DNA of 64,000 nt from Methanocaldococcus sp. 16A (GTDB lineage Archaea; AGJL01; Methanococci; Methanococcales; Methanocaldococcaceae). The notes beneath the pieces were generated by a model, which searched no databases, was not told where the DNA came from, and saw only the letters and a list, made by a program, of their open reading frames with translations. This document shows, piece by piece, positions 4,410-17,226 of this stretch (position 1 is the first letter of the stretch; every line of letters begins with the position of its first letter). Location: NCBI GenBank assembly GCA_049860595.1, contig CP187551.1; one strand, given 5' to 3'. A program made the position numbers and the translations under genes.

Positions 4410-5474
4410 TTATTCAGTTGCTAAATTTTCAAATGCTTTTTTCCAAGCTATTGGTTTTGTTTTTGTTATGCTAATCTCTTTCCTTACAACTTTTATTGCA
4501 TTAACTGGACATGCCTTAGCACAAGCCCCACATAAAACACAGAGGTTTTGATTAACAACCAATCTTGAAACTTTTTCAGCTTTATCTTTTGGTTTAGGGA
4601 ATTCTAAGGCATTACATGGACATATGGCAACACAAGCTTCACAAGCGTTACATGCATCAACATCAATTATAACTTCTCCTTTGAATGGTTTCTCAACTTC
4701 AATAGCCTCTGCTGGACATATAAAAGCACACCATCCACAAGCAACGCATAAATCTTCATTAATATTAACATTCCCTTTAATATCCTCATACAACTTTGCC
4801 TTTGGAATCTTTTTCATCAAAGGACATTTATAACAAATAACCTCTATTGCATCATGTGGACAGACATATTCACAAACTTTACAGTAAACACACTTATCTT
4901 TATCAACTTCAATGTCAGTTATTGGTTTTGGATTTGTTGGTGTTGGGTGATTATATTTTAAGTTTATAGCATCTGCTGGACAATATTCAGCACAAATTCC
5001 ACAGAAGACACAGTTCTCTTTATTTATGTTAATTTCTCCAATAACAAACTTCTTCCTCTCAGCTAAACTTCTTTCTACTGTTATAGCATATTGAGGACAG
5101 ACCATCTCACACTGCCCACATAAAACACATTTATCTTGATAAATTTTGATACTCTTCCTTTTAATCTTTGGATATTTTTCATCCTCTTTTATTGATTTTC
5201 CATTGATTTTTAAATCCATTGCATCAAATGGGCAAGATGCAGCACATAATCCACATAAAACACATTTTTCTTCATCAATATCTAACTTTGGAGCTTCAAT
5301 GAGACCTTTAGCTATCGCTCCTAAAGGACCCAACACAATTGCCTTTGTTGGGCAGATGTCATAGCAGATACCGCAACCAACACATAGGTAATCATTCCAC
5401 ATTAACTCCCTTTTTTCAAAACCCTTTCTTGAGATTGTTATAACACCATTATAAACATCCTTTATCTGTTGCAA
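4410..5474 (-). CDS. fwdF: Formylmethanofuran dehydrogenase subunit F (polyferredoxin, 8 CxxCxxCxxxCP motifs)
   Basis: Eight ferredoxin motifs; TTG start after GAGGTGG SD. Confidence 0.9.
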   Translation of the reverse strand: MQQIKDVYNGVITISRKGFEKRELMWNDYLCVGCGICYDICPTKAIVLGPLGAIAKGLIEAPKLDIDEEKCVLCGLCAASCPFDAMDLKINGKSIKEDEKYPKIKRKSIKIYQDKCVLCGQCEMVCPQYAITVERSLAERKKFVIGEININKENCVFCGICAEYCPADAINLKYNHPTPTNPKPITDIEVDKDKCVYCKVCEYVCPHDAIEVICYKCPLMKKIPKAKLYEDIKGNVNINEDLCVACGWCAFICPAEAIEVEKPFKGEVIIDVDACNACEACVAICPCNALEFPKPKDKAEKVSRLVVNQNLCVLCGACAKACPVNAIKVVRKEISITKTKPIAWKKAFENLATE

Positions 5475-5718: not shown

Positions 5719-6291
5719 ATGGATATTCTAAACTCTATAACTAACAAACTTGATGGAATTAAAAGGGAAGATATTGAAAAAGTCATTAATTTTCATGGTT
5801 GTTTAAGTCCCGGAGTTTTAATTGGAATCTTCATGTTTAATTTGGCTAAGAAAATCCTCAATATTGGTGAAAATGACAGAATTTATGCTATTTGTGAAAC
5901 CTACAATTGTGTTCCTGATGCTTTCCAAATTCTTGGAAGATGCACAACAGGAAATAAAAGATTAAAAATCAATGACACTGGAAAGATGGCTGTAACTGTA
6001 AATAAATGGGGAAAAGAAGGGGAAGTTGTTAAAGGAGTTAGAATAATTCTCGACCATAAAAAAACTGTCAAATATCCAAAACTTCATGCTTGGTATCTAA
6101 ACATTGAGAAAGTTTCTCATGATGATGTTATTTTAGAAATTATTGAAGCTGGAGAAGATGTCTATTCTTATGAGTTTGTTGATATTCTCGTTCCACACAA
6201 ACAAAAAAAATCTATAAAATTGTGTGAAATTTGCAAAGAACCTTTTATACAAAAAAGAAATGAAACTATCTGCTCATCTTGCCAAAATTAG
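5719..6291 (+). CDS. fmdE: Formylmethanofuran dehydrogenase subunit E family protein
   Basis: FHGCLSPG, CETYNCVPDAFQ..CTTGN, C-terminal CxxC...CxxC zinc finger. Confidence 0.85.
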   Translation: MDILNSITNKLDGIKREDIEKVINFHGCLSPGVLIGIFMFNLAKKILNIGENDRIYAICETYNCVPDAFQILGRCTTGNKRLKINDTGKMAVTVNKWGKEGEVVKGVRIILDHKKTVKYPKLHAWYLNIEKVSHDDVILEIIEAGEDVYSYEFVDILVPHKQKKSIKLCEICKEPFIQKRNETICSSCQN

Positions 6292-6306: not shown

Positions 6307-8055
6307 ATGTATCTTGTAATAAAGAATGGATATGTATTTGACCCAATGAATAGAATTGATGGAGAAAAAATGGATATCTTTGTTAAAGATGGAAAGATTG
6401 TTGAGGAACTATCTCCAAATGAACTAAAAGATGCAAAAGTTATTGATGCTACAAACAAAACCGTAATGCCAGGAGGTGTTGATTCCCACACTCATGTTGC
6501 TGGACCTAAAGTTACTGTTGGTAGAATGATGTGTCCTGAGTATCAATACAAACACGTTGTGAAAAAAACTGATATAACTCACAGCGGTTCTGGAAATATC
6601 GTACCTTCAAGCTATGCTATGGGTTATAAATACACAATAATGGGTTATACAACTGTTTGCGAAGCCGCTACTCCTCCAATGCTCGCAAAACACACTCATG
6701 AAGAGCTAAAGCACGTCCCTATTTTAAATAAATGTGCATACCTAATGCTTGGAAACAATTGGTTTGTTATGAGGTATTTAAAAGAAGGAGATATTGAGAA
6801 AACTGCTGCCTACGTTGCGTGGATGCTCAAAACCCATAAATGTTTTGGGATTAAGTGTGTAAATCCTGCTGGTGTAGAGAACTGGGGTTGGGGTTTAAAT
6901 ATCTATTCCTTAGATGAGCCAAATTTGCATTTTGAAGTTACACCAAGAGAAATTATTAGAGGATTAGCAGAAGTTAATGAAATGCTTGGCTATCCAATGT
7001 CAATACATGTTCATGCCAATGGTTTAGGTCATCCAGGAAACTGGGAAATTGCAAGAGAAACACTAACAATCCCAAAAGACATAAAACCAAATCAAAAGGT
7101 TGAAATTGAAGAAGAAATAAAGACAAAAGTTCCTCATGAGAGAGAGCAGAGTATTTATTTAACTCATGTTCAGTTTAACGCATTTGGTGGAACTTCATGG
7201 AAAGATTTTGAATCTGGAACAAACGGAATTATTGACTATGTAAATAAATCAAAACATGTTGTTATTGACAGTGGTTGTGTTGTTTTTGGAAAAGCTATTT
7301 GTATGACGGGAGATGGTCCAAATCTATACGATTTGGCAGTTTTAACTGGAGGGAAATGGTCTAATGATGATGTTGAGTTGGAGTGTGGTTCTGGTATAGT
7401 TCCTTTCGCATACAGAAAGAAAAATGGTGTGCATAGTGTTCAGTGGGCGATGGGTTTAGAATTATTATTGGGAGTTAAAGACCCATGGAAGGTTGTTATG
7501 ACAACAGACAGTCCAAATGGAGGTCCATTTACAAACTATCCAAAAGTTATCTCATGGCTAATGTCTAAAAAGGCAAGGGAGGATTTGTTAAAAGAATGCC
7601 ACAAATGGGCTTCTGAAAGAACTGAGCTTCCAAACATTGATAGAGAAATGAGTTTATTTGAAATAGCAACAATTACAAGAGCTACACCAGCAAAAGCTGT
7701 TGGATTGGCTCCAATGAAAGGGCATTTAGGTGTTGGAGCAGATGCAGATATTGCCATCTATGATATAAACCCAGATACTTTGAATCCTAATGACTACAAT
7801 ACCATTGAAAAGAAGTTTTCTTGTACAGAATACACAATAAATGGAGGAATTATTGTTGCTCATAATGGAAAGATTGTTTCAACGCCTGATGGGACAACAT
7901 ATTACTGCAATACCAAATTCTCAGACGAAGAAATCTACAATGAAATGATTAAAGATGTTAAAGATTGGTTTAAGTATTATACGTTTGATTTCACCAATTA
8001 TCCAACAACAGAGCATTATTTAACAAAACCAACGCCAATAAATGTAGGTGAATAG
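6307..8055 (+). CDS. fmdA: Formylmethanofuran dehydrogenase subunit A (amidohydrolase)
   Basis: MPGGVDSHTHVAG, HVHANGLGHPGN and TTDSPNGGPF motifs. Confidence 0.92.
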   Translation: MYLVIKNGYVFDPMNRIDGEKMDIFVKDGKIVEELSPNELKDAKVIDATNKTVMPGGVDSHTHVAGPKVTVGRMMCPEYQYKHVVKKTDITHSGSGNIVPSSYAMGYKYTIMGYTTVCEAATPPMLAKHTHEELKHVPILNKCAYLMLGNNWFVMRYLKEGDIEKTAAYVAWMLKTHKCFGIKCVNPAGVENWGWGLNIYSLDEPNLHFEVTPREIIRGLAEVNEMLGYPMSIHVHANGLGHPGNWEIARETLTIPKDIKPNQKVEIEEEIKTKVPHEREQSIYLTHVQFNAFGGTSWKDFESGTNGIIDYVNKSKHVVIDSGCVVFGKAICMTGDGPNLYDLAVLTGGKWSNDDVELECGSGIVPFAYRKKNGVHSVQWAMGLELLLGVKDPWKVVMTTDSPNGGPFTNYPKVISWLMSKKAREDLLKECHKWASERTELPNIDREMSLFEIATITRATPAKAVGLAPMKGHLGVGADADIAIYDINPDTLNPNDYNTIEKKFSCTEYTINGGIIVAHNGKIVSTPDGTTYYCNTKFSDEEIYNEMIKDVKDWFKYYTFDFTNYPTTEHYLTKPTPINVGE

Positions 8056-8056
8056 C

Positions 8057-9295
8057 ATGGAAGTTATCTTAACACCAAAAGATACTCCAGATATTCCAAT
8101 AGAAGCAGAGGTTATAAATCCAGATATATTTGCCAATAAAAGTAAGGAAGAGATTGAATCTCTCTTAGTTTGGCAAGGTCCTAATACATATCCAATCTCA
8201 GAGTTCTTTGATGTTGAGATAAGTCCAAATAACCCAAAAGATGTAACAATCATTATTGAAGGAGATGTTGAGAGAGTTAAATACATTGGTTCAAAAATGA
8301 GTTCTGGAAAAATTATAATAAATGGAAATGTCGGAATTCAACTTGGTTCAGAAATGAAAGGTGGGGAGATTGTTGTTAATGGAAATGCTAAACATTGGGT
8401 TGGTAGAGAGATGAAAGGGGGAGTAATAAAGATTAACGGAAACGCTGGAGATTACGTAGGCTCTGCCTATAGAGGTAGTTGGCATGGAATGAAGGGAGGG
8501 AAAATTATTATTGAAGGAGACGCTGGAAACAACGTTGGAGCGGCAATAACAGGCGGAGAGATTATTATAAAAGGAAATGTTAAGCAATTTTGTGGAATTA
8601 GACAAAATGGTGGATCTATCTATATTGGAGGAAATGCTGAGAGAGCTGTTGGAGTAGAGATGACAAAGGGAACAATAGTTGTCTGTGGAAGAATAAGGTT
8701 CTTCGCTCCAGGATTTGAGTTTGATGGAATAGAGAAGGACCTAAACATAAATGATATGCCAATTTATGGAGAATATCTCAAATTTATTGGAGATTATGTT
8801 ATAAGCAGAAAACCTAAAGGAGTTTTGTATGCTTTAAAAGAGAAAAACCTTGGACTTATAGAGCCAGAACTTTATGAATGCTATGAAAATTACAGATACG
8901 ATGGAGGAATTAAAGCTCTTCTAAACACTGGAAGTACTGTTGTTCAAGGAGAAATCATCAAAGGAGGAAAGAAATTTACTGAAAAATACGTTAAGGAATG
9001 TGCCGTCTGTTATATTCATCCAAATGACTATGAATATCTTGGAAAACCAGAGTATGTAAATGTAATCAGTGAGGATAAGAAAGCAAGTATAGCTCTGAGA
9101 GCAATTCCTGATAGCTCATTACAAGAAGGAACTATATTTATTCCAAGGTCTATTTGGGCTAATGTTGTTATTCTCTCCTATACAGAATCCATGGGTTCTC
9201 CACTCTATAAGGGGTGTTATGTCTATGTTGAGCCAGTTAAAGGAAAAGCTGAGATATTAACTGCTGAAGAGATTATGAAAAAGATATATGGGTGA
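8057..9295 (+). CDS. fmdC: Formylmethanofuran dehydrogenase subunit C fused to a subunit-D-like C-terminal domain
   Basis: Gly-rich beta-helix repeats (G..M.GG.I.I.GNAG), then LNTGST...C...P.D...IFIPRSIWANV...GSPLYKG (FwdD-like). Confidence 0.88.
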   Translation: MEVILTPKDTPDIPIEAEVINPDIFANKSKEEIESLLVWQGPNTYPISEFFDVEISPNNPKDVTIIIEGDVERVKYIGSKMSSGKIIINGNVGIQLGSEMKGGEIVVNGNAKHWVGREMKGGVIKINGNAGDYVGSAYRGSWHGMKGGKIIIEGDAGNNVGAAITGGEIIIKGNVKQFCGIRQNGGSIYIGGNAERAVGVEMTKGTIVVCGRIRFFAPGFEFDGIEKDLNINDMPIYGEYLKFIGDYVISRKPKGVLYALKEKNLGLIEPELYECYENYRYDGGIKALLNTGSTVVQGEIIKGGKKFTEKYVKECAVCYIHPNDYEYLGKPEYVNVISEDKKASIALRAIPDSSLQEGTIFIPRSIWANVVILSYTESMGSPLYKGCYVYVEPVKGKAEILTAEEIMKKIYG

Positions 9296-9300
9296 AATTT

Positions 9301-10632
9301 ATGGCTATGAAGGTTTTTAGGGGTATAACTTGTCCTGTCTGTGGAATGGCGTGTGACGATATAGAAGTCTGGTATGATGAAGAAAAGCAGGAAATAATTG
9401 TAAAAAATGTTTGTAGAGAGGGAGCTCCAAAGTTTAAAGAGATTGTTAGTCCACATAGAATAAGAGAACCAATGATTAAAAAGAATGGAAAGTTCGTTAA
9501 AGTTAGTTGGGAAGAGGCAATAAATAAAGCTGCAGAAATTTTAGCTAATGCTAAGAGACCTCTCCTCTTTATGGGAGCTGAAACGTCAGCTGAAGCACAT
9601 ATAGTCGGAATGCACATGGCTGAATACTTAGGGGGAGTTGTTGATTCAAACTCAACAATATGACACGGTCCTACTTTAATGGGGGTTCAAGAGGCTGGAC
9701 TTCCTGGCTGTACTGCTGGTGAAGTAAAAAATAGAGCTGATTTAATCATATTCTGGGGCTGTAATCCAATGCACTCCCACCCAAGACATATGAGTAGATA
9801 TTCAGTATTTGCAAGAGGGTTCTTTAGAGAAAGAGGCAGAAAAGATAGAAAAATAGTTGTTGTCGACCCAAGAAAAACAGATACTGCAAAGTTAGCAGAT
9901 TTACATGTTCAGTTAAAGCCTAACACAGACTATGAGATGTTCTCTGCTCTCCTAACAATATTAAGGGGCAAAAAGCCACATCACAGCGTTGAGAAGATAA
10001 CTGGAGTACCAATTGAAGTTATGGAAGAGATGATTGAATGGATGAAAAATGCTAAATTCGTAAAAATTTATGGTGGTTTAGGATTACCAGCATCAAGAGG
10101 GGGGCATAGAAATATAGAATGTGTCTTAACTTTAGTTAAAGAGTTAAATAAATATACAAAATGTTCCATTGGAGCTTTAAGAGGACACTGTAATGTTAAT
10201 GGATTCAACCAAGTTGCCTCATATATGTATGGTTATCCTTATGGAATAGACTTTGCAAGAGGTTATCCAAGATACAATCCTGGAGAATTTACATTTGCAG
10301 ACCTATTGAGAGAAAGAGAAATTGACGCTGTGTTAGTAGTAGCCGCTGGTATCGTTGAGCATACACCAAAAGACTGTGCAAAGTATTTGAATGAGATTCC
10401 GATGGTTTGTATAGATATAGCTCCCGGACCTACACCTTATGCTTCAGATGTTGTATTGCCTGGAGTTATTGATGGAATGGAATGTGGAGCAACATTCTAT
10501 AGGTTTGACGGATTAACTTTGTATGCAAAGCCTTTCACAACCTCACCATTTCCATTTACTAAGAGTAATGAAGACACTTTAAGACAAATATTTGAAAAGG
10601 TTAAAGAAATCAAAGAAGGTAAGAAAAAATAA
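9301..10632 (+). CDS. fmdB: Formylmethanofuran dehydrogenase subunit B, selenocysteine-containing (443 aa, Sec121)
   Basis: ORFs 9292-9663 and 9679-10632 share a frame and are joined by TGA 9661-9663 in DSNSTI-U-HGP; CPVCGMACDD [4Fe-4S] motif; SECIS 53 nt after the stop. Confidence 0.92.
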
Positions 10633-10685
10633 TAAGAAAAATAAAAATTCAGCCAGGAAGTCCAGCCCACCAAAAAATGTTTGTG

Positions 10686-10721
10686 ATGATACGCCGAACC
10701 CGTTAAAGGGAGGCGTATCAT
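10686..10721 (+). promoter_or_regulatory. Archaeal SECIS element in the fmdB 3' UTR
   Basis: ATGATACGCC-GAA-CCC-GTTAAA-GGG-A-GGCGTATCAT: 10-bp stem, GAA/A internal loop, three G-C pairs, apical loop. Confidence 0.92.
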
Positions 10722-10815
10722 AGCTCTTATTATTTTTATTTTTTTACAACATTTAGTAACTAATTTTGATTGATTTATTGAATAAAAATTAATTTAATAT
10801 AATTACGGTGATACT

Positions 10816-11947
10816 ATGATTTCAGTTAAAGAGGCAGAGAAGATTTTAGAGAAATTCAGATTTAACAAAACCGAATATATTAAAATAGAGGAAGCTTATG
10901 GAAGGGTTTTAGCTGAAGATGTTATAAGTGATACAGATATTCCAAGATTTGACAGAAGTGATATTGACGGCTATGCAGTAACAGAAATTTTAGATGAGTA
11001 TGTTTTAATTGAAGAAGTTTTTGCTGGAGATGATAAAGATTTAGTGATAGAGGGAAACGAATGTGTTTTAGTAGCAACAGGAGGGAAAGTTCCAAAAAAT
11101 ACAAAGTATGTTATACCAGTCGAAAATACAGTAAGAGTTAGAAATAAAGTAGTAGTTATTAGTTTTGATAGAATTGAAGGAATTTCAAAAAAGGGTTGTG
11201 ATATAAAAAAAAGGAGAGATAATTTTAAAGAAAGGCACTTTAATAAATGAGAGAAATATTGGAGTTTTGGCAGGATTGGGCATTGAAGAGATAAAAGTTT
11301 ATAAAATCCCAAAAGTAGGAATTATATCAACCGGTAATGAATTATTTAAGATGACTAAAGATATAAATTCAAAAACAATATCATCCATTGTAAAAAAAGC
11401 AGGTTGTGAGCCAATATTTTTAGGAATTGCAAAAGATGACTTTAATGAAATAAAAGAGAAAATAATTAACGCATCAGAAAAATGTGATATTGTTGTAACC
11501 TCTGGTGGAGTTTCTGTTGGAAAAAAGGATTTCCTACCGAGGGTTGTTGATGAATTGGGTGAGATTTTATTCCATAAGGTTAAGATGAGACCCGGCATGC
11601 CTATGCTATTTGGAAAAGTAAATGATAAACCTATTTTTTGCATGCCAGGGAATGTAGTTTCATGTTTAGTTTGCAGTTATATGTTTTTGCTTCCTTTTTT
11701 AATGAAAATGACACACAAACCATATAGAAAGAGAATTATTAAAGCAGAGTTATCAGAAAAAATTGTATCAGAACCAGATTTTTTATATTTAAGACCTGTG
11801 AAATTAAAAAATGGAATAGCCTATCCAATATTTAAAGGTTCTAATATACTAACTTCAATATTAGATGCCGATGGATTAGTCATAATAAAAGAAAATGAAT
11901 TAGAAAAGAACGAAGGAGAGATAATTGATGTTTGGCTGTTTGACTAA
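10816..11947 (+). pseudogene. moeA: Molybdopterin molybdenumtransferase MoeA, frameshifted at an A8 run (11205-11212)
   Basis: N-part GRVLAED..PRFDRSDIDGYAV..VATGG; C-part IISTGNE, TSGGVSVG..D, PGNVVS; deleting one A gives a continuous 376-aa ORF (KGCDIKKGEIILKKGT...). Confidence 0.85.
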
Positions 11948-11976: not shown

Positions 11977-12741
11977 ATGATAATAGAAAAAATAAAAGAA
12001 AGAGCTTTAAATCTATTAAATGAAAAGGAAGATAAATTTAAAATATTAGATTTTTCTTTTGCTTTACCTTATAGTTATGTGTTAATTGAAAGCAATGGTA
12101 AAAAAGCTTTAGGCGTGGCAATGACATTATTGGAAGAGTATAGAGGGCATAAAAAGGATATAAATATATACAAAAATTTAGAAGATTTTATAAACATGGT
12201 AGATAGTTTTGATATTGTTGAAAGAACATTAGGATTAGCTGCAATAAATGCAGTATCTCAATATTATTTAAACTTTGAGGCAAATTGTAGAGATGCCACT
12301 GAGTTAGTTTTGAATAGGAATGATATTAAAAAAATTGCTTTTATTGGAAATATGATGCCAGTTGTTAATATGCTAAAAAAATCAGGAAAATTTGATATAT
12401 ATGTTTTTGAAAGAAATCCTTCTTTGTTATGTGAAGATGTTTTAAGTGATAGTTTTGAATATAGGTTATTACCAGAGATGGACGCAGTATTTATAAGCGG
12501 AACATCATTATTAAACGATACATTAGATTTTGTTTTAGATAGGGCTAAAAATGCCAAACTAAAGATTTTAGTAGGTCCTACTGCTCAGTCTCTACCAGAT
12601 TTATTTAAAGGGTTTGGTATAACTCATATAGCATCAACAAAGATTGTAAATGTTGATAAAGCACTCCTATATTTAAAATTTGCATCCTCTTCAATGCTAT
12701 TCAAAGAAGCTTCAAAGAAATATACCATTGAAGTTAAATAA
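11977..12741 (+). CDS. DUF364/DUF4213 Rossmann-like protein
   Basis: LGLAAINAVSQ, ISGTSLLNDTLD and LVGPTA motifs. Confidence 0.75.
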   Translation: MIIEKIKERALNLLNEKEDKFKILDFSFALPYSYVLIESNGKKALGVAMTLLEEYRGHKKDINIYKNLEDFINMVDSFDIVERTLGLAAINAVSQYYLNFEANCRDATELVLNRNDIKKIAFIGNMMPVVNMLKKSGKFDIYVFERNPSLLCEDVLSDSFEYRLLPEMDAVFISGTSLLNDTLDFVLDRAKNAKLKILVGPTAQSLPDLFKGFGITHIASTKIVNVDKALLYLKFASSSMLFKEASKKYTIEVK

Positions 12742-12744
12742 AAA

Positions 12745-12817
12745 TTAATTCCTCTCAGATACCCCGAAAGGGTTCATCATATTAATCAGCTTTTATTGCT
12801 CATCATCGAGGAATTAA
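12745..12817 (-). ncRNA. Box C/D guide sRNA
   Basis: Minus strand: C ATGATGA, guide GCAATAAAAG, D' CTGA, C' ATGATGA, guide ACCCTTTCGGGGTAT, D CTGA; closed by a 10-bp terminal stem TTAATTCCTC/GAGGAATTAA. Confidence 0.88.
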
Positions 12818-15828: not shown

Positions 15829-17226
15829 TTACCCCCATTTTCTAACTCTTTTCAATATCACTCTTTCTCCCCCACTAATATCCCCATCAAATTCAGCAAT
15901 TAAAGCTCCCTTAGTCCCAAATGTTCCTTTTATAATTCCCCACACATCCTTATCCGGAACATAAACTTTTTCTCCAATAAGTTTTTCTCCAGATGATTTA
16001 GATGTAGCCAATCCTTCAATATAGATTTTATCTTTTTTCTTAACAATTTTTCCTTCTCTAACAACTATCTTTTTAACTTCTACATCTTCAAATCCTACAA
16101 CCTCTCCAAAACCACAAATTCTCAAAGTTGTTGGAGGCAAGTCCAATCTCATTATCAAAACTTTATCTCCTTCCTCAACAACAACCTTCTCTTCTAATTT
16201 AAAGATACAGTAGCAAGAATCTCCTCCTGTAATTTCTTCTAAAATTATTGGCTCTTCTTTATCGTTAATTTTCTCTATTTTATATGGGATTATCGTAGCT
16301 GGAACTGTTAAAAGCCCAATATTTATATGAACCTTCATCTTTGGAGTCAAATTGTATTTAAATAAATTAAGAATCTTTATCTTTGCTATAAACTTATCTA
16401 CAACCTTTAATTTTGTATCTTCTGAAGTTAAGATACAACCCCTAAACAAACTATCTGGCTCAATTCCCATTAAAGCCATTCCTACCCTATCTCCAGCATA
16501 AGCTTTCTCAACATCTTGTTTAAAGCACTGTATGCTTTTAACTTTAACCTCATGGTTTATTGGTAGAATTCTTAGAGTATCTCCAACCTCTACTTTCCCT
16601 TTATGAATTGTTCCGGTTATAACAGTCCCAACCCCTTTTATTTTAAATGCATGGTCAATAGGCATTTTTAAATAGCTATTTATCTCTCTTTCAATATTTA
16701 AGCTATCTAATAAATTTTTAAGCTCTTTCTTTAATTCTTCTATTCCCTCTCCAGTTTTTGCTGAGATTTTAACAATTTTGGAGTTCTTTAAATTCATAGT
16801 TGAGCTTAATATTTGTTTCATAAACATTTCAGTTCTTTTAATTTCCTCATCACTTGCAATATCTATCTTATTTATAACAACAATTGTTGGGATGTTTAAT
16901 AAGTCCAAAACCAATAAATGCTCTCCAGTTTGAGTTTTTGGTCCTTCTTTAGCATCTACAACTAATAAAGCAGCATCTATTATATTCCCTGCCCCAATAG
17001 CAGTTCTTATCAACTCAGAATGTCCAGGGGCATCAACTAAGGTAATTCTATATCTATCTAAAATAAAAGAAGAAAAGCCTAAATCAATAGTTATCCCTCT
17101 TTTTTGAGATTCTTTTGGTTTGTCTAATGCAGATGTTGAGACAATCTCTGTTAGTTGTTTTGCTAATTGTGTTTTTCCATGGTCAATATGTCCAAACAAT
17201 CCAACATTTACATTTTTCATTTCCAT
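15829..17226 (-). CDS. selB: Selenocysteine-specific translation elongation factor
   Basis: GHIDHGKT, RGITIDLGFS, DAPGH and NKID motifs; archaeal SelB C-terminal domain (G.FGTKG). Confidence 0.95.
   Translation of the reverse strand: MEMKNVNVGLFGHIDHGKTQLAKQLTEIVSTSALDKPKESQKRGITIDLGFSSFILDRYRITLVDAPGHSELIRTAIGAGNIIDAALLVVDAKEGPKTQTGEHLLVLDLLNIPTIVVINKIDIASDEEIKRTEMFMKQILSSTMNLKNSKIVKISAKTGEGIEELKKELKNLLDSLNIEREINSYLKMPIDHAFKIKGVGTVITGTIHKGKVEVGDTLRILPINHEVKVKSIQCFKQDVEKAYAGDRVGMALMGIEPDSLFRGCILTSEDTKLKVVDKFIAKIKILNLFKYNLTPKMKVHINIGLLTVPATIIPYKIEKINDKEEPIILEEITGGDSCYCIFKLEEKVVVEEGDKVLIMRLDLPPTTLRICGFGEVVGFEDVEVKKIVVREGKIVKKKDKIYIEGLATSKSSGEKLIGEKVYVPDKDVWGIIKGTFGTKGALIAEFDGDISGGERVILKRVRKWG

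What the first reader, a model, noticed from the sequence alone, without database searches (positions are those of the whole stretch)
9301..10721. Selenocysteine-encoded FmdB with its own SECIS inside a Mo-type fmd operon
Seen: the two ORF-track fragments are one gene with an in-frame TGA (9661-9663) in SNSTI-U-HGP, and a textbook archaeal SECIS at 10686-10721; selB is in the same window. Established: this position is the Cys/Sec ligand of the Mo/W-pterin centre, and Sec is known in tungsten-type FwuB/FwdB. As far as I recall, characterised fmdE-operon (Mo-type) B subunits use Cys. Inference: a candidate Mo-Se formylmethanofuran dehydrogenase, i.e. an additional archaeal selenoprotein gene that pipelines would mis-call as a pseudogene.
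Basis: partly seen in the sequence, partly recalled or inferred. Interest (0 to 1): 0.8.

Follow-up and report, generated by a model that had tools for sequence, protein, structure and literature searches.

The report
Selenocysteine FmdB in a molybdenum-type operon
This is a real but mis-annotated selenoprotein gene: a third, molybdenum-type copy of the CO2-reducing subunit of formylmethanofuran dehydrogenase that uses selenocysteine at its metal site, found in many relatives of this methanogen.

Summary
Window 9301-10632 (+) is one 443-codon fmdB gene with an in-frame TGA (9661-9663) at the Mo/W-ligand position. A canonical archaeal SECIS (10686-10721, GAA/A loop) lies in its 3'UTR, and selB is at 15829-17226 (-).

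The genome also has the usual fwuB (Sec) and fwcB (Cys) beside the vhu and vhc genes, so this is a third paralogue. It sits in an fmdE-fmdA-fmdC/D-fmdB operon. On trees it falls in the FmdB clade with the Methanosarcinales and Methanothermobacter molybdenum enzymes, at 62-66% identity against 42-46% to its own FwuB/FwcB.

Orthologues occur in 16 of 40 Methanococcales genomes, and 15 of those 16 have Sec. Public protein collections hold the gene as two fragments of 120 and 317 aa.

The metal, Mo or W, cannot be read from sequence. The selenoprotein family itself (FwdB/FmdB) is already known, so this is a new member of a known kind.

A side-lead came up. Eight orthologues in other genera lack any UTR SECIS. 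Their only SECIS-like hairpin lies inside the ORF about 88 nt after the UGA, where synonymous sites are unusually conserved.

The parts
4410..5474 (-). Divergently transcribed FwdF/FmdF-type polyferredoxin (354 aa)
   Evidence: NF042909 FwdF 483.2 bits, cut-off 375. It is 80% identical to the FwdF of the genome's separate fwd cluster.
5719..6291 (+). fmdE (190 aa)
   Evidence: PF02663 FmdE 105.1 bits. One of two FmdE genes in the genome.
6307..8055 (+). fmdA, the amidohydrolase subunit (582 aa)
   Evidence: TIGR03121 827.9 bits. Only 53% identical to the genome's other FwdA.
8048..9295 (+). fmdC/D fusion (415 aa)
   Evidence: TIGR03122 (subunit C) on residues 6-261 and NF042908 (FwdD) on residues 289-414. 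Pfam GXGXG plus Molydop_binding.
9301..10632 (+). fmdB, 443 codons with Sec121; the end coordinate includes the TAA stop
9661..9663 (+). UGA selenocysteine codon at the Mo/W-ligand position
   Evidence: Conserved as TGA in 15 of 16 orthologues.
10686..10721 (+). [quoted passage not shown]
   Evidence: It starts 53 nt after the stop codon and about 1.02 kb after the UGA.
10725..10745 (+). T-rich run directly after the SECIS, a likely transcript end (inferred)
   Evidence: Read from the sequence. Not tested.
10816..11250 (+). MoeA N-terminal part as its own ORF (144 aa)
   Evidence: PF03453 97.2 bits. The same split is seen next to fmdB in 13 of 16 orthologous loci.
11267..11947 (+). MoeA C-terminal part as its own ORF (226 aa), in another frame
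   Evidence: PF00994 plus PF03454.
11977..12741 (+). DUF364/DUF4213 protein ('putative heavy-metal chelation')
   Evidence: PF04016 130.6 bits and PF13938 47.7 bits.
15829..17226 (-). selB, the Sec-specific elongation factor (465 aa)
   Evidence: TIGR00475 537.8 bits, cut-off 242.25.

Best explanation
The window encodes a complete second formylmethanofuran dehydrogenase of the Fmd (molybdenum-type) lineage. Its genes are fmdE, fmdA, a fused fmdC/D and fmdB, with a divergently transcribed FmdF-type polyferredoxin beside them. The catalytic B subunit is a selenoprotein.

Shown here: UGA 9661-9663 stands at the position of the Cys/Sec that ligates the metal of the bis-pterin cofactor. A canonical archaeal SECIS sits in the 3'UTR. 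selB, tRNA-Sec and selD are present in the genome.

Inferred: during translation the SECIS lets SelB deliver Sec-tRNASec to the UGA, giving a 443-aa FmdB with Sec121 bound to the metal. FmdB reduces CO2 to formate with electrons from the polyferredoxin, and FmdA condenses the formate with methanofuran. That mechanism is recalled from the solved Fwd structure, not tested here.

My estimate is about 0.55 that the metal is Mo and 0.45 that it is W. The enzyme works beside the usual FwuB (Sec) and FwcB (Cys) isoenzymes, which share the separate fwdFDAC cluster.
For: Gene, UGA and SECIS.

SECIS specificity: the strict descriptor gives 8 hits in the whole genome, all beside selenoprotein genes. A looser descriptor gives 16 hits, 9 of them at -18.9 kcal/mol or lower, this one among them.

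Sec machinery: selB, tRNA-Sec, selD.

Third paralogue: the genome has three TIGR03129 genes. The other two lie after vhuB, and after hdrA in the vhc cluster.

Clade: 62-66% identity to Methanosarcinales and Methanothermobacter FmdB, among them records named 'molybdenum containing', against 45% to its own FwuB/FwcB. The best solved relative is 9sw6_J at 631.5 bits, against 441.7 for the tungsten FwdB 5t5i_B. [quoted passage not shown] The trees split FmdB from FwdB at 100* (64 rows) and at 100/100 (36 rows).

Synteny: the gene order matches the Methanosarcinales fmdE(F)ACDB operon.

Conservation: orthologous operons in 16 of 40 Methanococcales genomes. TGA is kept in 15 of 16 and the flanking frame is kept. 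All 7 close orthologues have exactly one strict SECIS hit, directly 3' of fmdB.

Own A, C/D and F subunits, distinct from the fwd cluster.
Against: There is no evidence of expression or of selenium incorporation. No RNA run is listed for this DNA, so nothing could be laid on it.

The metal is open:
- No sequence determinant of Mo versus W is known to me.
- The genome's best ModA-family hit is only 98.6 bits and is not near the operon. Some Methanococcus-type genomes have hits of 207-217 bits.
- A paper on a Methanothermococcus species simply assumes that its formylmethanofuran dehydrogenase carries tungstopterin.

Within the FmdB clade the branching among the three Methanococcales groups, Methanothermobacter and the Methanosarcinales is unresolved. 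The origin of the operon is therefore unknown.
Confidence: 0.87

Rival explanations
1. The gene and Sec insertion are as described, but the enzyme binds tungsten. It would then be a W-Se enzyme like FwuB that merely descends from the Fmd lineage.
For: The host genus consists of hyperthermophiles whose known Sec enzyme is called tungsten-type (FwuB). No bona fide ModA lies near the operon in this genome. Fmd-lineage enzymes are reported to accept tungstate, judging from a title in the reference list seen.
Against: The FmdB clade, fmdE, the fused C/D subunit, and a best solved match from cells grown with Mo. A dedicated extra MoeA paralogue lies beside the operon; it is the third in the genome. 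High-scoring ModA genes lie 1.7-4.4 kb from fmdB in G018, G019 and G020. All of this is circumstantial.
Confidence: 0.4
2. The TGA is a true stop. The locus is either a decaying pseudogene or a gene split into a 120-aa Fe-S piece and a 317-aa piece, which is how databases record it.
For: Public collections hold exactly these two fragments. An ATG follows five codons after the TGA.
Against: The TGA sits exactly on the ligand codon. The five codons between the TGA and that ATG (HGPTL) are conserved in frame. The TGA is kept in 15 of 16 orthologues that are down to 62% identical, with no other lesion. A SECIS of the genome's own type follows the gene.
Confidence: 0.03
3. It is just another copy of the standard FwuB, and the fmdE neighbourhood is incidental.
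For: Same NCBIfam family (TIGR03129) and the same UHGP motif.
Against: It is 45% identical to the genome's FwuB and 62-66% to FmdB of other orders. The clade split has 100/100 support. It has its own fmdA, fmdC/D and polyferredoxin. The real fwuB lies after vhuB elsewhere in the genome.
Confidence: 0.01

Closest known systems
Molybdenum formylmethanofuran dehydrogenase: FmdB of the fmdECB operon in Methanothermobacter and of fmdEFACDB in Methanosarcina (solved as 9SW6)
   Same: Same clade, with 62-66% identity. fmdE is in the operon, C/D is fused, and the gene order is the same. The N-terminal cysteines C11, C14, C18 and C38 and the xHGP motif are invariant.
   Different: The ligand is Sec instead of Cys. 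A 3'UTR SECIS is present. The polyferredoxin gene is divergent rather than inside the operon. The metal is not determined.
FwuB, the Sec-containing B subunit of the tungsten-type enzyme in Methanopyrus, Methanocaldococcus and Methanococcus
   Same: Sec at the same aligned position, the UHGP motif, a 3'UTR SECIS about 1 kb from the UGA, and the same NCBIfam family.
   Different: It belongs to the other deep clade, at 42-46% identity. FwuB lies at the end of the hdrA-vhuDGAUB cluster and borrows A, C, D, F and G from a separate fwd cluster. This gene has its own A, C/D and F and also fmdE.
Mo-Sec formate dehydrogenases (for example E. coli FdhH; recalled, not tested here)
   Same: A distant homologue (TIGR01591 120.8 bits) that also reduces CO2 or oxidises formate at a bis-pterin metal centre with a Sec ligand.
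   Different: FmdB lacks the fourth (cap) domain, which FmdD supplies. It also works inside the Fmd complex.

Membership tests
FmdB/FwdB (NCBIfam TIGR03129) | Full-length match above the curated cut-off | tested here: met
   614.6 bits against a cut-off of 327.8, profile positions 2-421 of 421.
FmdB/FwdB (NCBIfam TIGR03129) | Cys/Sec metal ligand followed by His-Gly-Pro, and the N-terminal cysteines of the [4Fe-4S] cluster | tested here: met
   U121-H122-G123-P124 aligns with CHGP of 5t5i_B and 9sw6_J. C11, C14, C18 and C38 are invariant in alignment A1.
Molybdenum-type Fmd (fmd operon) | B subunit in the FmdB clade rather than the FwdB clade | tested here: met
   Clade split at 100* and 100/100. 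The best solved match is 9sw6_J.
Molybdenum-type Fmd (fmd operon) | fmdE in the operon and fused C/D subunit | tested here: met
   PF02663 at 5719-6291. TIGR03122 plus NF042908 in one 415-aa ORF. The fusion is called typical of Mo-based Fmd in the legend read.
Molybdenum-type Fmd (fmd operon) | Molybdenum in the active site, and molybdate-dependent synthesis | not testable with these tools
   Only circumstantial context is available: an extra MoeA beside the operon and ModA near fmdB in some other genomes but not this one.
Molybdenum-type Fmd (fmd operon) | Cys as the metal ligand, as in all characterised members | tested here: not met
   Sec (TGA) here and in 15 of 16 Methanococcales orthologues. 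Cys in the Methanosarcinales and Methanothermobacter members examined.
Archaeal selenoprotein gene | In-frame UGA aligned with Cys in homologues, and an open frame on both sides | tested here: met
Archaeal selenoprotein gene | SECIS in a UTR, with a GAA/A internal loop flanked by G-C pairs | tested here: met
   The definition is taken from passages of PMC11881835.
Archaeal selenoprotein gene | Sec machinery in the genome | tested here: met
   selB, tRNA-Sec, selD. PSTK and SepSecS were not looked for.
Archaeal selenoprotein gene | Selenium incorporated into the protein | not testable with these tools
   Needs 75Se labelling or mass spectrometry.
FwuB (canonical Sec tungsten subunit) | Membership of the FwdB clade and a position after vhuB | tested here: not met
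   The genome's true fwuB is at C1:1336330-1337637.

The most novel reading that the evidence does not exclude
The Fmd-lineage enzyme of Methanococcales is a true Mo-Se formylmethanofuran dehydrogenase, a third isoenzyme class beside W-Se Fwu and W-S Fwc. Within the same gene family the SECIS has been placed in two ways. The window's group carries a canonical element in the 3'UTR. The sister group (G018, G019, G021-23, G026, G032, G036) carries an element inside the coding region about 88 nt after the UGA. If it works, that would be the first coding-region SECIS described in Archaea, where reviews place SECIS in UTRs only.
Probability: 0.3. Interest if true: 0.8.

Novelty: new member of a known kind. 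Interest (0 to 1): 0.5.

Why it matters
Current accounts of archaeal selenoproteins list a single Sec-containing formylmethanofuran dehydrogenase subunit, FwuB, paired with a Cys isoform. They treat FwdB and FmdB as one family.

This work shows that many Methanococcales carry a further Sec-dependent enzyme of the other, molybdenum-type lineage. It has no Cys twin of its own lineage and it is stored in databases as two fragments. Three things follow:
- Selenoproteome counts for these genomes are too low.
- Reasoning about selenium, molybdenum and tungsten dependence of vent methanogens is affected.
- The enzyme offers a natural Sec versus Cys comparison at an Fmd-type centre, because one orthologue, in G020, has Cys.

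The in-ORF hairpin in the sister group can be tested directly with the published beta-lactamase reporter. A positive result would change the rule on where archaeal SECIS elements can lie.

Tried and rejected
- RNA evidence: the look-up of sequencing runs listed no RNA holder, only a small-share DNA row. Read laying was therefore not used and nothing is concluded from this.
- Rfam: no family matched the SECIS in L062 or in three group-ii loci, so Rfam gave no independent check.
- Covariance model: the MAFFT alignment of 12 SECIS elements put the 3' halves of elements with 4-nt loops out of register. I did not build a model and used descriptor scans of my own instead. The first two descriptors missed the known SECIS of Methanococcus-type genomes. 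The third recovers 18 elements in 5 control loci.
- Stability of the in-ORF hairpin: it is no better than shuffles (z = 0.01 to -0.8) and shows no compensatory change. This counts against it.
- A control with the same peptide motif in organisms that do not use Sec was sought, and none exists in the sets held: 0 of 77 genome loci (46 were tested by script, and the other 31 were only read as printed peptides) and 0 of 72 Cys-type metagenome loci.
- ModA profiling does not separate genomes with the operon from those without it.
- Six of my literature searches found no text that singles out Sec in the fmdE-operon B subunit. A seventh search only traced the PDB entry 9SW6.
- Supplements are closed. 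Table S6 of PMC11227280 and the tree figure of PMC7331816 may already list this paralogue.

Full report
**1. The observation**

The frame that opens at ATG 9301, preceded by GGTGA, runs to TAA 10630-10632. Its one interruption is TGA at 9661-9663. Table 11 therefore gives two ORFs, 9292-9663 and 9679-10632.

Read through, the 443-aa product matches TIGR03129 (formylmethanofuran dehydrogenase subunit B) end to end at 614.6 bits against a cut-off of 327.8. U121 falls in DSNSTI-U-HGP. It aligns with the Cys of the tungsten FwdB structure 5t5i_B, which by count along that alignment is residue 118, and with the X of 9sfi_Q.

The hairpin at 10686-10721 begins 53 nt after the stop. It folds at -23.1 kcal/mol with z = -5.04, and 0 of 200 shuffles fold as well. 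It has a 10-bp lower stem, GAA opposite a single A, three G-C pairs and a 6-nt loop. This is the shape that passages of PMC11881835 define as the methanogen SECIS. A T-rich run follows at 10725-10745.

A strict descriptor of this shape finds 8 sites on both strands of the 1.62-Mb genome. One is this site. Four follow hdrA, vhuD, vhuU and fwuB. One lies 5' of fdhA. One follows selD and one follows a HesB-like ORF with U. A looser descriptor finds 16 sites, of which 9 are at -18.9 kcal/mol or lower.

selB is at 15829-17226 (-). The genome also has a tRNA-Sec gene and selD.

**2. What it is**

The genome has three TIGR03129 genes:
- C1:1336330-1337637, with one TGA, ends the hdrA-vhuDGAUB cluster and is the classical fwuB.
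- C1:233404-234720, with no stop, lies in the vhc/hdrA cluster and is fwcB.
- The window's gene is the third.

Upstream on the same strand lie fmdE (PF02663), fmdA (TIGR03121) and a fused fmdC/D. An FwdF-type polyferredoxin is transcribed divergently. A separate fwdF-D-A-C cluster lies at C1:1307412-1312041, and the window's A and C are only 53% and 45% identical to it. The window therefore encodes a complete second enzyme.

The B subunit is 62-66% identical to FmdB of Methanosarcinales and Methanothermobacter. Some of those records are named 'molybdenum containing' by their source. It is 45% identical to its own FwuB and FwcB.

Its best solved relative is 9sw6_J at 631.5 bits, ahead of 5t5i_B at 441.7. 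From passages of PMC13580544, 9SW6 is the Methanothermobacter marburgensis Mvh-Hdr-Fmd complex from cells grown with molybdenum. [quoted passage not shown]

I built two trees.
- The quick tree (LG+G4) had 64 rows. It used 46 of the 54 Methanococcales sequences that I extracted. Eight Fwu/Fwc rows from G002, G005, G006, G015, G016, G024 and G031 were left out to thin the set. One fragment truncated by TAA, in L027, had been dropped earlier.
- The careful tree (LG+C20) had 36 rows.

Both split an FmdB clade from an FwdB clade, at 100* and at 100/100. The FmdB clade holds the Methanosarcinales, Methanothermobacter P0015 and the Methanococcales fmdE-operon genes. The FwdB clade holds Methanobacteriales FwdB, all FwuB and FwcB, and the Asgard-type rows. 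Branching inside the FmdB clade is unresolved.

The gene order equals that of the Methanosarcinales fmdE(F)ACDB operon.

**3. Distribution**

Of 40 Methanococcales genomes scanned, 16 have this operon: G000, G001, G007, G011, G018-G023, G025, G026, G032, G036, G038 and G039.
- fmdE is seen in 15 of the 16. The G038 contig starts inside the operon.
- fmdA is seen in 12. Three Methanothermococcus-type loci have E-C/D-B only, like the Methanothermobacter fmdECB. In G038 the contig start cuts the operon, so its fmdA, like its fmdE, cannot be seen.
- A MoeA split into N and C ORFs lies beside fmdB in 13.
- The ligand codon is TGA in 15 of 16, and G020 has Cys.

The named control genome of M. jannaschii has no FmdE hit.

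Public protein collections hold the gene as a 120-aa and a 317-aa record, for example EHP86800.1 and EHP86801.1, and AIJ06259.1. No full-length Methanococcales record other than the Cys form appeared among the best 120 hits.

**4. The metal**

Four things argue for molybdenum: the clade, fmdE, the C/D fusion and the nearest solved structure. Context adds two hints:
- The MoeA beside the operon is the third MoeA in the genome. MoeA isoforms have been proposed, without proof, to choose between Mo and W (passage of PMC9765008).
- High-scoring ModA genes of 207-217 bits lie 1.7-4.4 kb from fmdB in G018, G019 and G020. Weaker family hits lie within 7 kb in G007, G039 and G021-23.

In the window's own genome the nearest hit is 21 kb away and below the cut-off. 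None of this decides the metal. I put Mo at about 0.55.

**5. Literature**

Reviews and analyses list FwdB/FmdB (TIGR03129) as one selenoprotein family with a Sec or Cys ligand. I read passages of PMC13188914, PMC11227280, PMC7331816, PMC10100899 and PMC2933860. For M. maripaludis only FwuB and its Cys isoform are named (PMC11097638).

Six full-text searches found no passage that singles out a Sec-containing B subunit of the fmdE operon. Supplementary tables and figures could not be read and may list it. I therefore file the gene as a new member of a known selenoprotein family, and as a mis-annotation in databases.

**6. Side-lead: a second place for the SECIS**

Seven of the 16 orthologous loci form the window's group: the window's own plus the six orthologues at 73-98% identity to it. 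Each of the seven has exactly one strict SECIS hit, directly 3' of fmdB.

The other eight Sec-type orthologues are L015-L017 and L022-L026. They have no hit in the 3'UTR or anywhere else in about 15 kb on either strand. This held even with a descriptor that recovers 18 known SECIS in five vhu/fwu loci of the same or sister genomes.

The single hit in each lies inside the fmdB ORF about 88 nt after the UGA. In L023 it is 7433-7462, TATTGGGGAACCAATCCTATGGACTCAATG, which encodes YWGTNPMDSM. Its energy is -6.2 kcal/mol, and -11.3 to -11.6 in the Methanothermococcus-type loci L017 and L026, where the stem extends further.

Evidence for the lead:
- Codons in the hairpin are identical in all 8 sequences compared at 5 of 7 degenerate conserved positions, against 32 of 210 gene-wide. 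Only 5 of 259 windows reach that level, and all five overlap or adjoin this spot. The two changes are G-C to G-U in the stem and one in the loop.
- Three further metagenome contigs carry both the TGA and the hairpin.
- The window's group reads FWGCNPMHSH at this position and forms no such hairpin.
- The looser descriptor's background is 7 weak hits in 3.2 Mb of strand sequence in the window's AT-rich genome, and 19 hits in 1.12 Mb (2.24 Mb of strand sequence) of Methanosarcinales loci.

Evidence against the lead:
- The hairpin is no more stable than shuffles.
- It shows no compensatory change.
- It is also present in the Cys-type G020 (L014).
- It encodes a conserved peptide, and no control with the same peptide outside Sec-using organisms was found.

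I rate it about 0.45 likely to be the working SECIS of those genes. Reviews place archaeal SECIS in UTRs only.

**7. Verdict**

The gene is a genuine, conserved, mis-annotated Sec-FmdB of the molybdenum-type lineage, and its metal is unproven.

Noticed in passing
L023:7433-7462, L015:7817-7846 (-), L017:7422-7460, L026:7822-7860 (-) and the equivalent sites in L016, L022, L024, L025, L014, L145-L147: Orthologous Sec-type fmdB genes of other genera have no UTR SECIS. Their only SECIS-like GAA/A hairpin lies inside the ORF about 88 nt after the UGA, and synonymous sites there are unusually conserved. The Cys-type orthologue in L014 has it too.
   Followed up: yes
window 10816-11250 and 11267-11947 (+): A MoeA gene split into an N-terminal ORF and a C-terminal ORF in different frames. 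The same split is conserved beside fmdB in 13 of 16 orthologous loci. It is the third MoeA in this genome. It may be a metal-insertion factor dedicated to this enzyme.
   Followed up: partly
window 11977-12741 (+): A DUF364/DUF4213 ('putative heavy-metal chelation') gene follows the MoeA pair. A homologue also lies near fmdB in 19 of the 80 loci. These are mostly Methanosarcinales loci, and one is a Methanocaldococcaceae contig (L063).
   Followed up: no
window about 12754-12809 (-) (L062:10430-10485): An Rfam C/D-box sRNA (sR5) match at 33.2 bits, below the gathering score of 40, with E = 6.5e-4. It lies in the gap between the DUF364 gene and the aconitase-family gene.
   Followed up: no
G000:C1:480122-480155 (-): A ninth strong SECIS-like hairpin (-19.5 kcal/mol) that only the looser descriptor found. 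It may belong to fruA. The neighbouring gene was not examined.
   Followed up: no
L018 (G037:C1:1362748-1365464) and L020/L021 (G025): A separate long-branched subclade of FwdB-like genes occurs as Sec/Cys pairs. In G037 the two copies stand in tandem, one with TGA and one with Cys.
   Followed up: no
L027 (G019:C1:630117-631391): The FwcB-type copy of G019 carries an in-frame TAA and is probably a pseudogene.
   Followed up: no
G018:C4:213322-213975, G019:C1:1389602-1390252, G020:C1:1686863-1687516: High-scoring ModA genes (207-217 bits) lie 1.7-4.4 kb from fmdB in three Methanococcus-type genomes. This echoes the mod genes beside fmdECB that are described for Methanothermobacter.
   Followed up: partly
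L144:1547-2314 (-) (G000:C1, next to selD): An IS6-family transposase ORF that is open only if one TGA is read through. It is probably a damaged copy.
   Followed up: no
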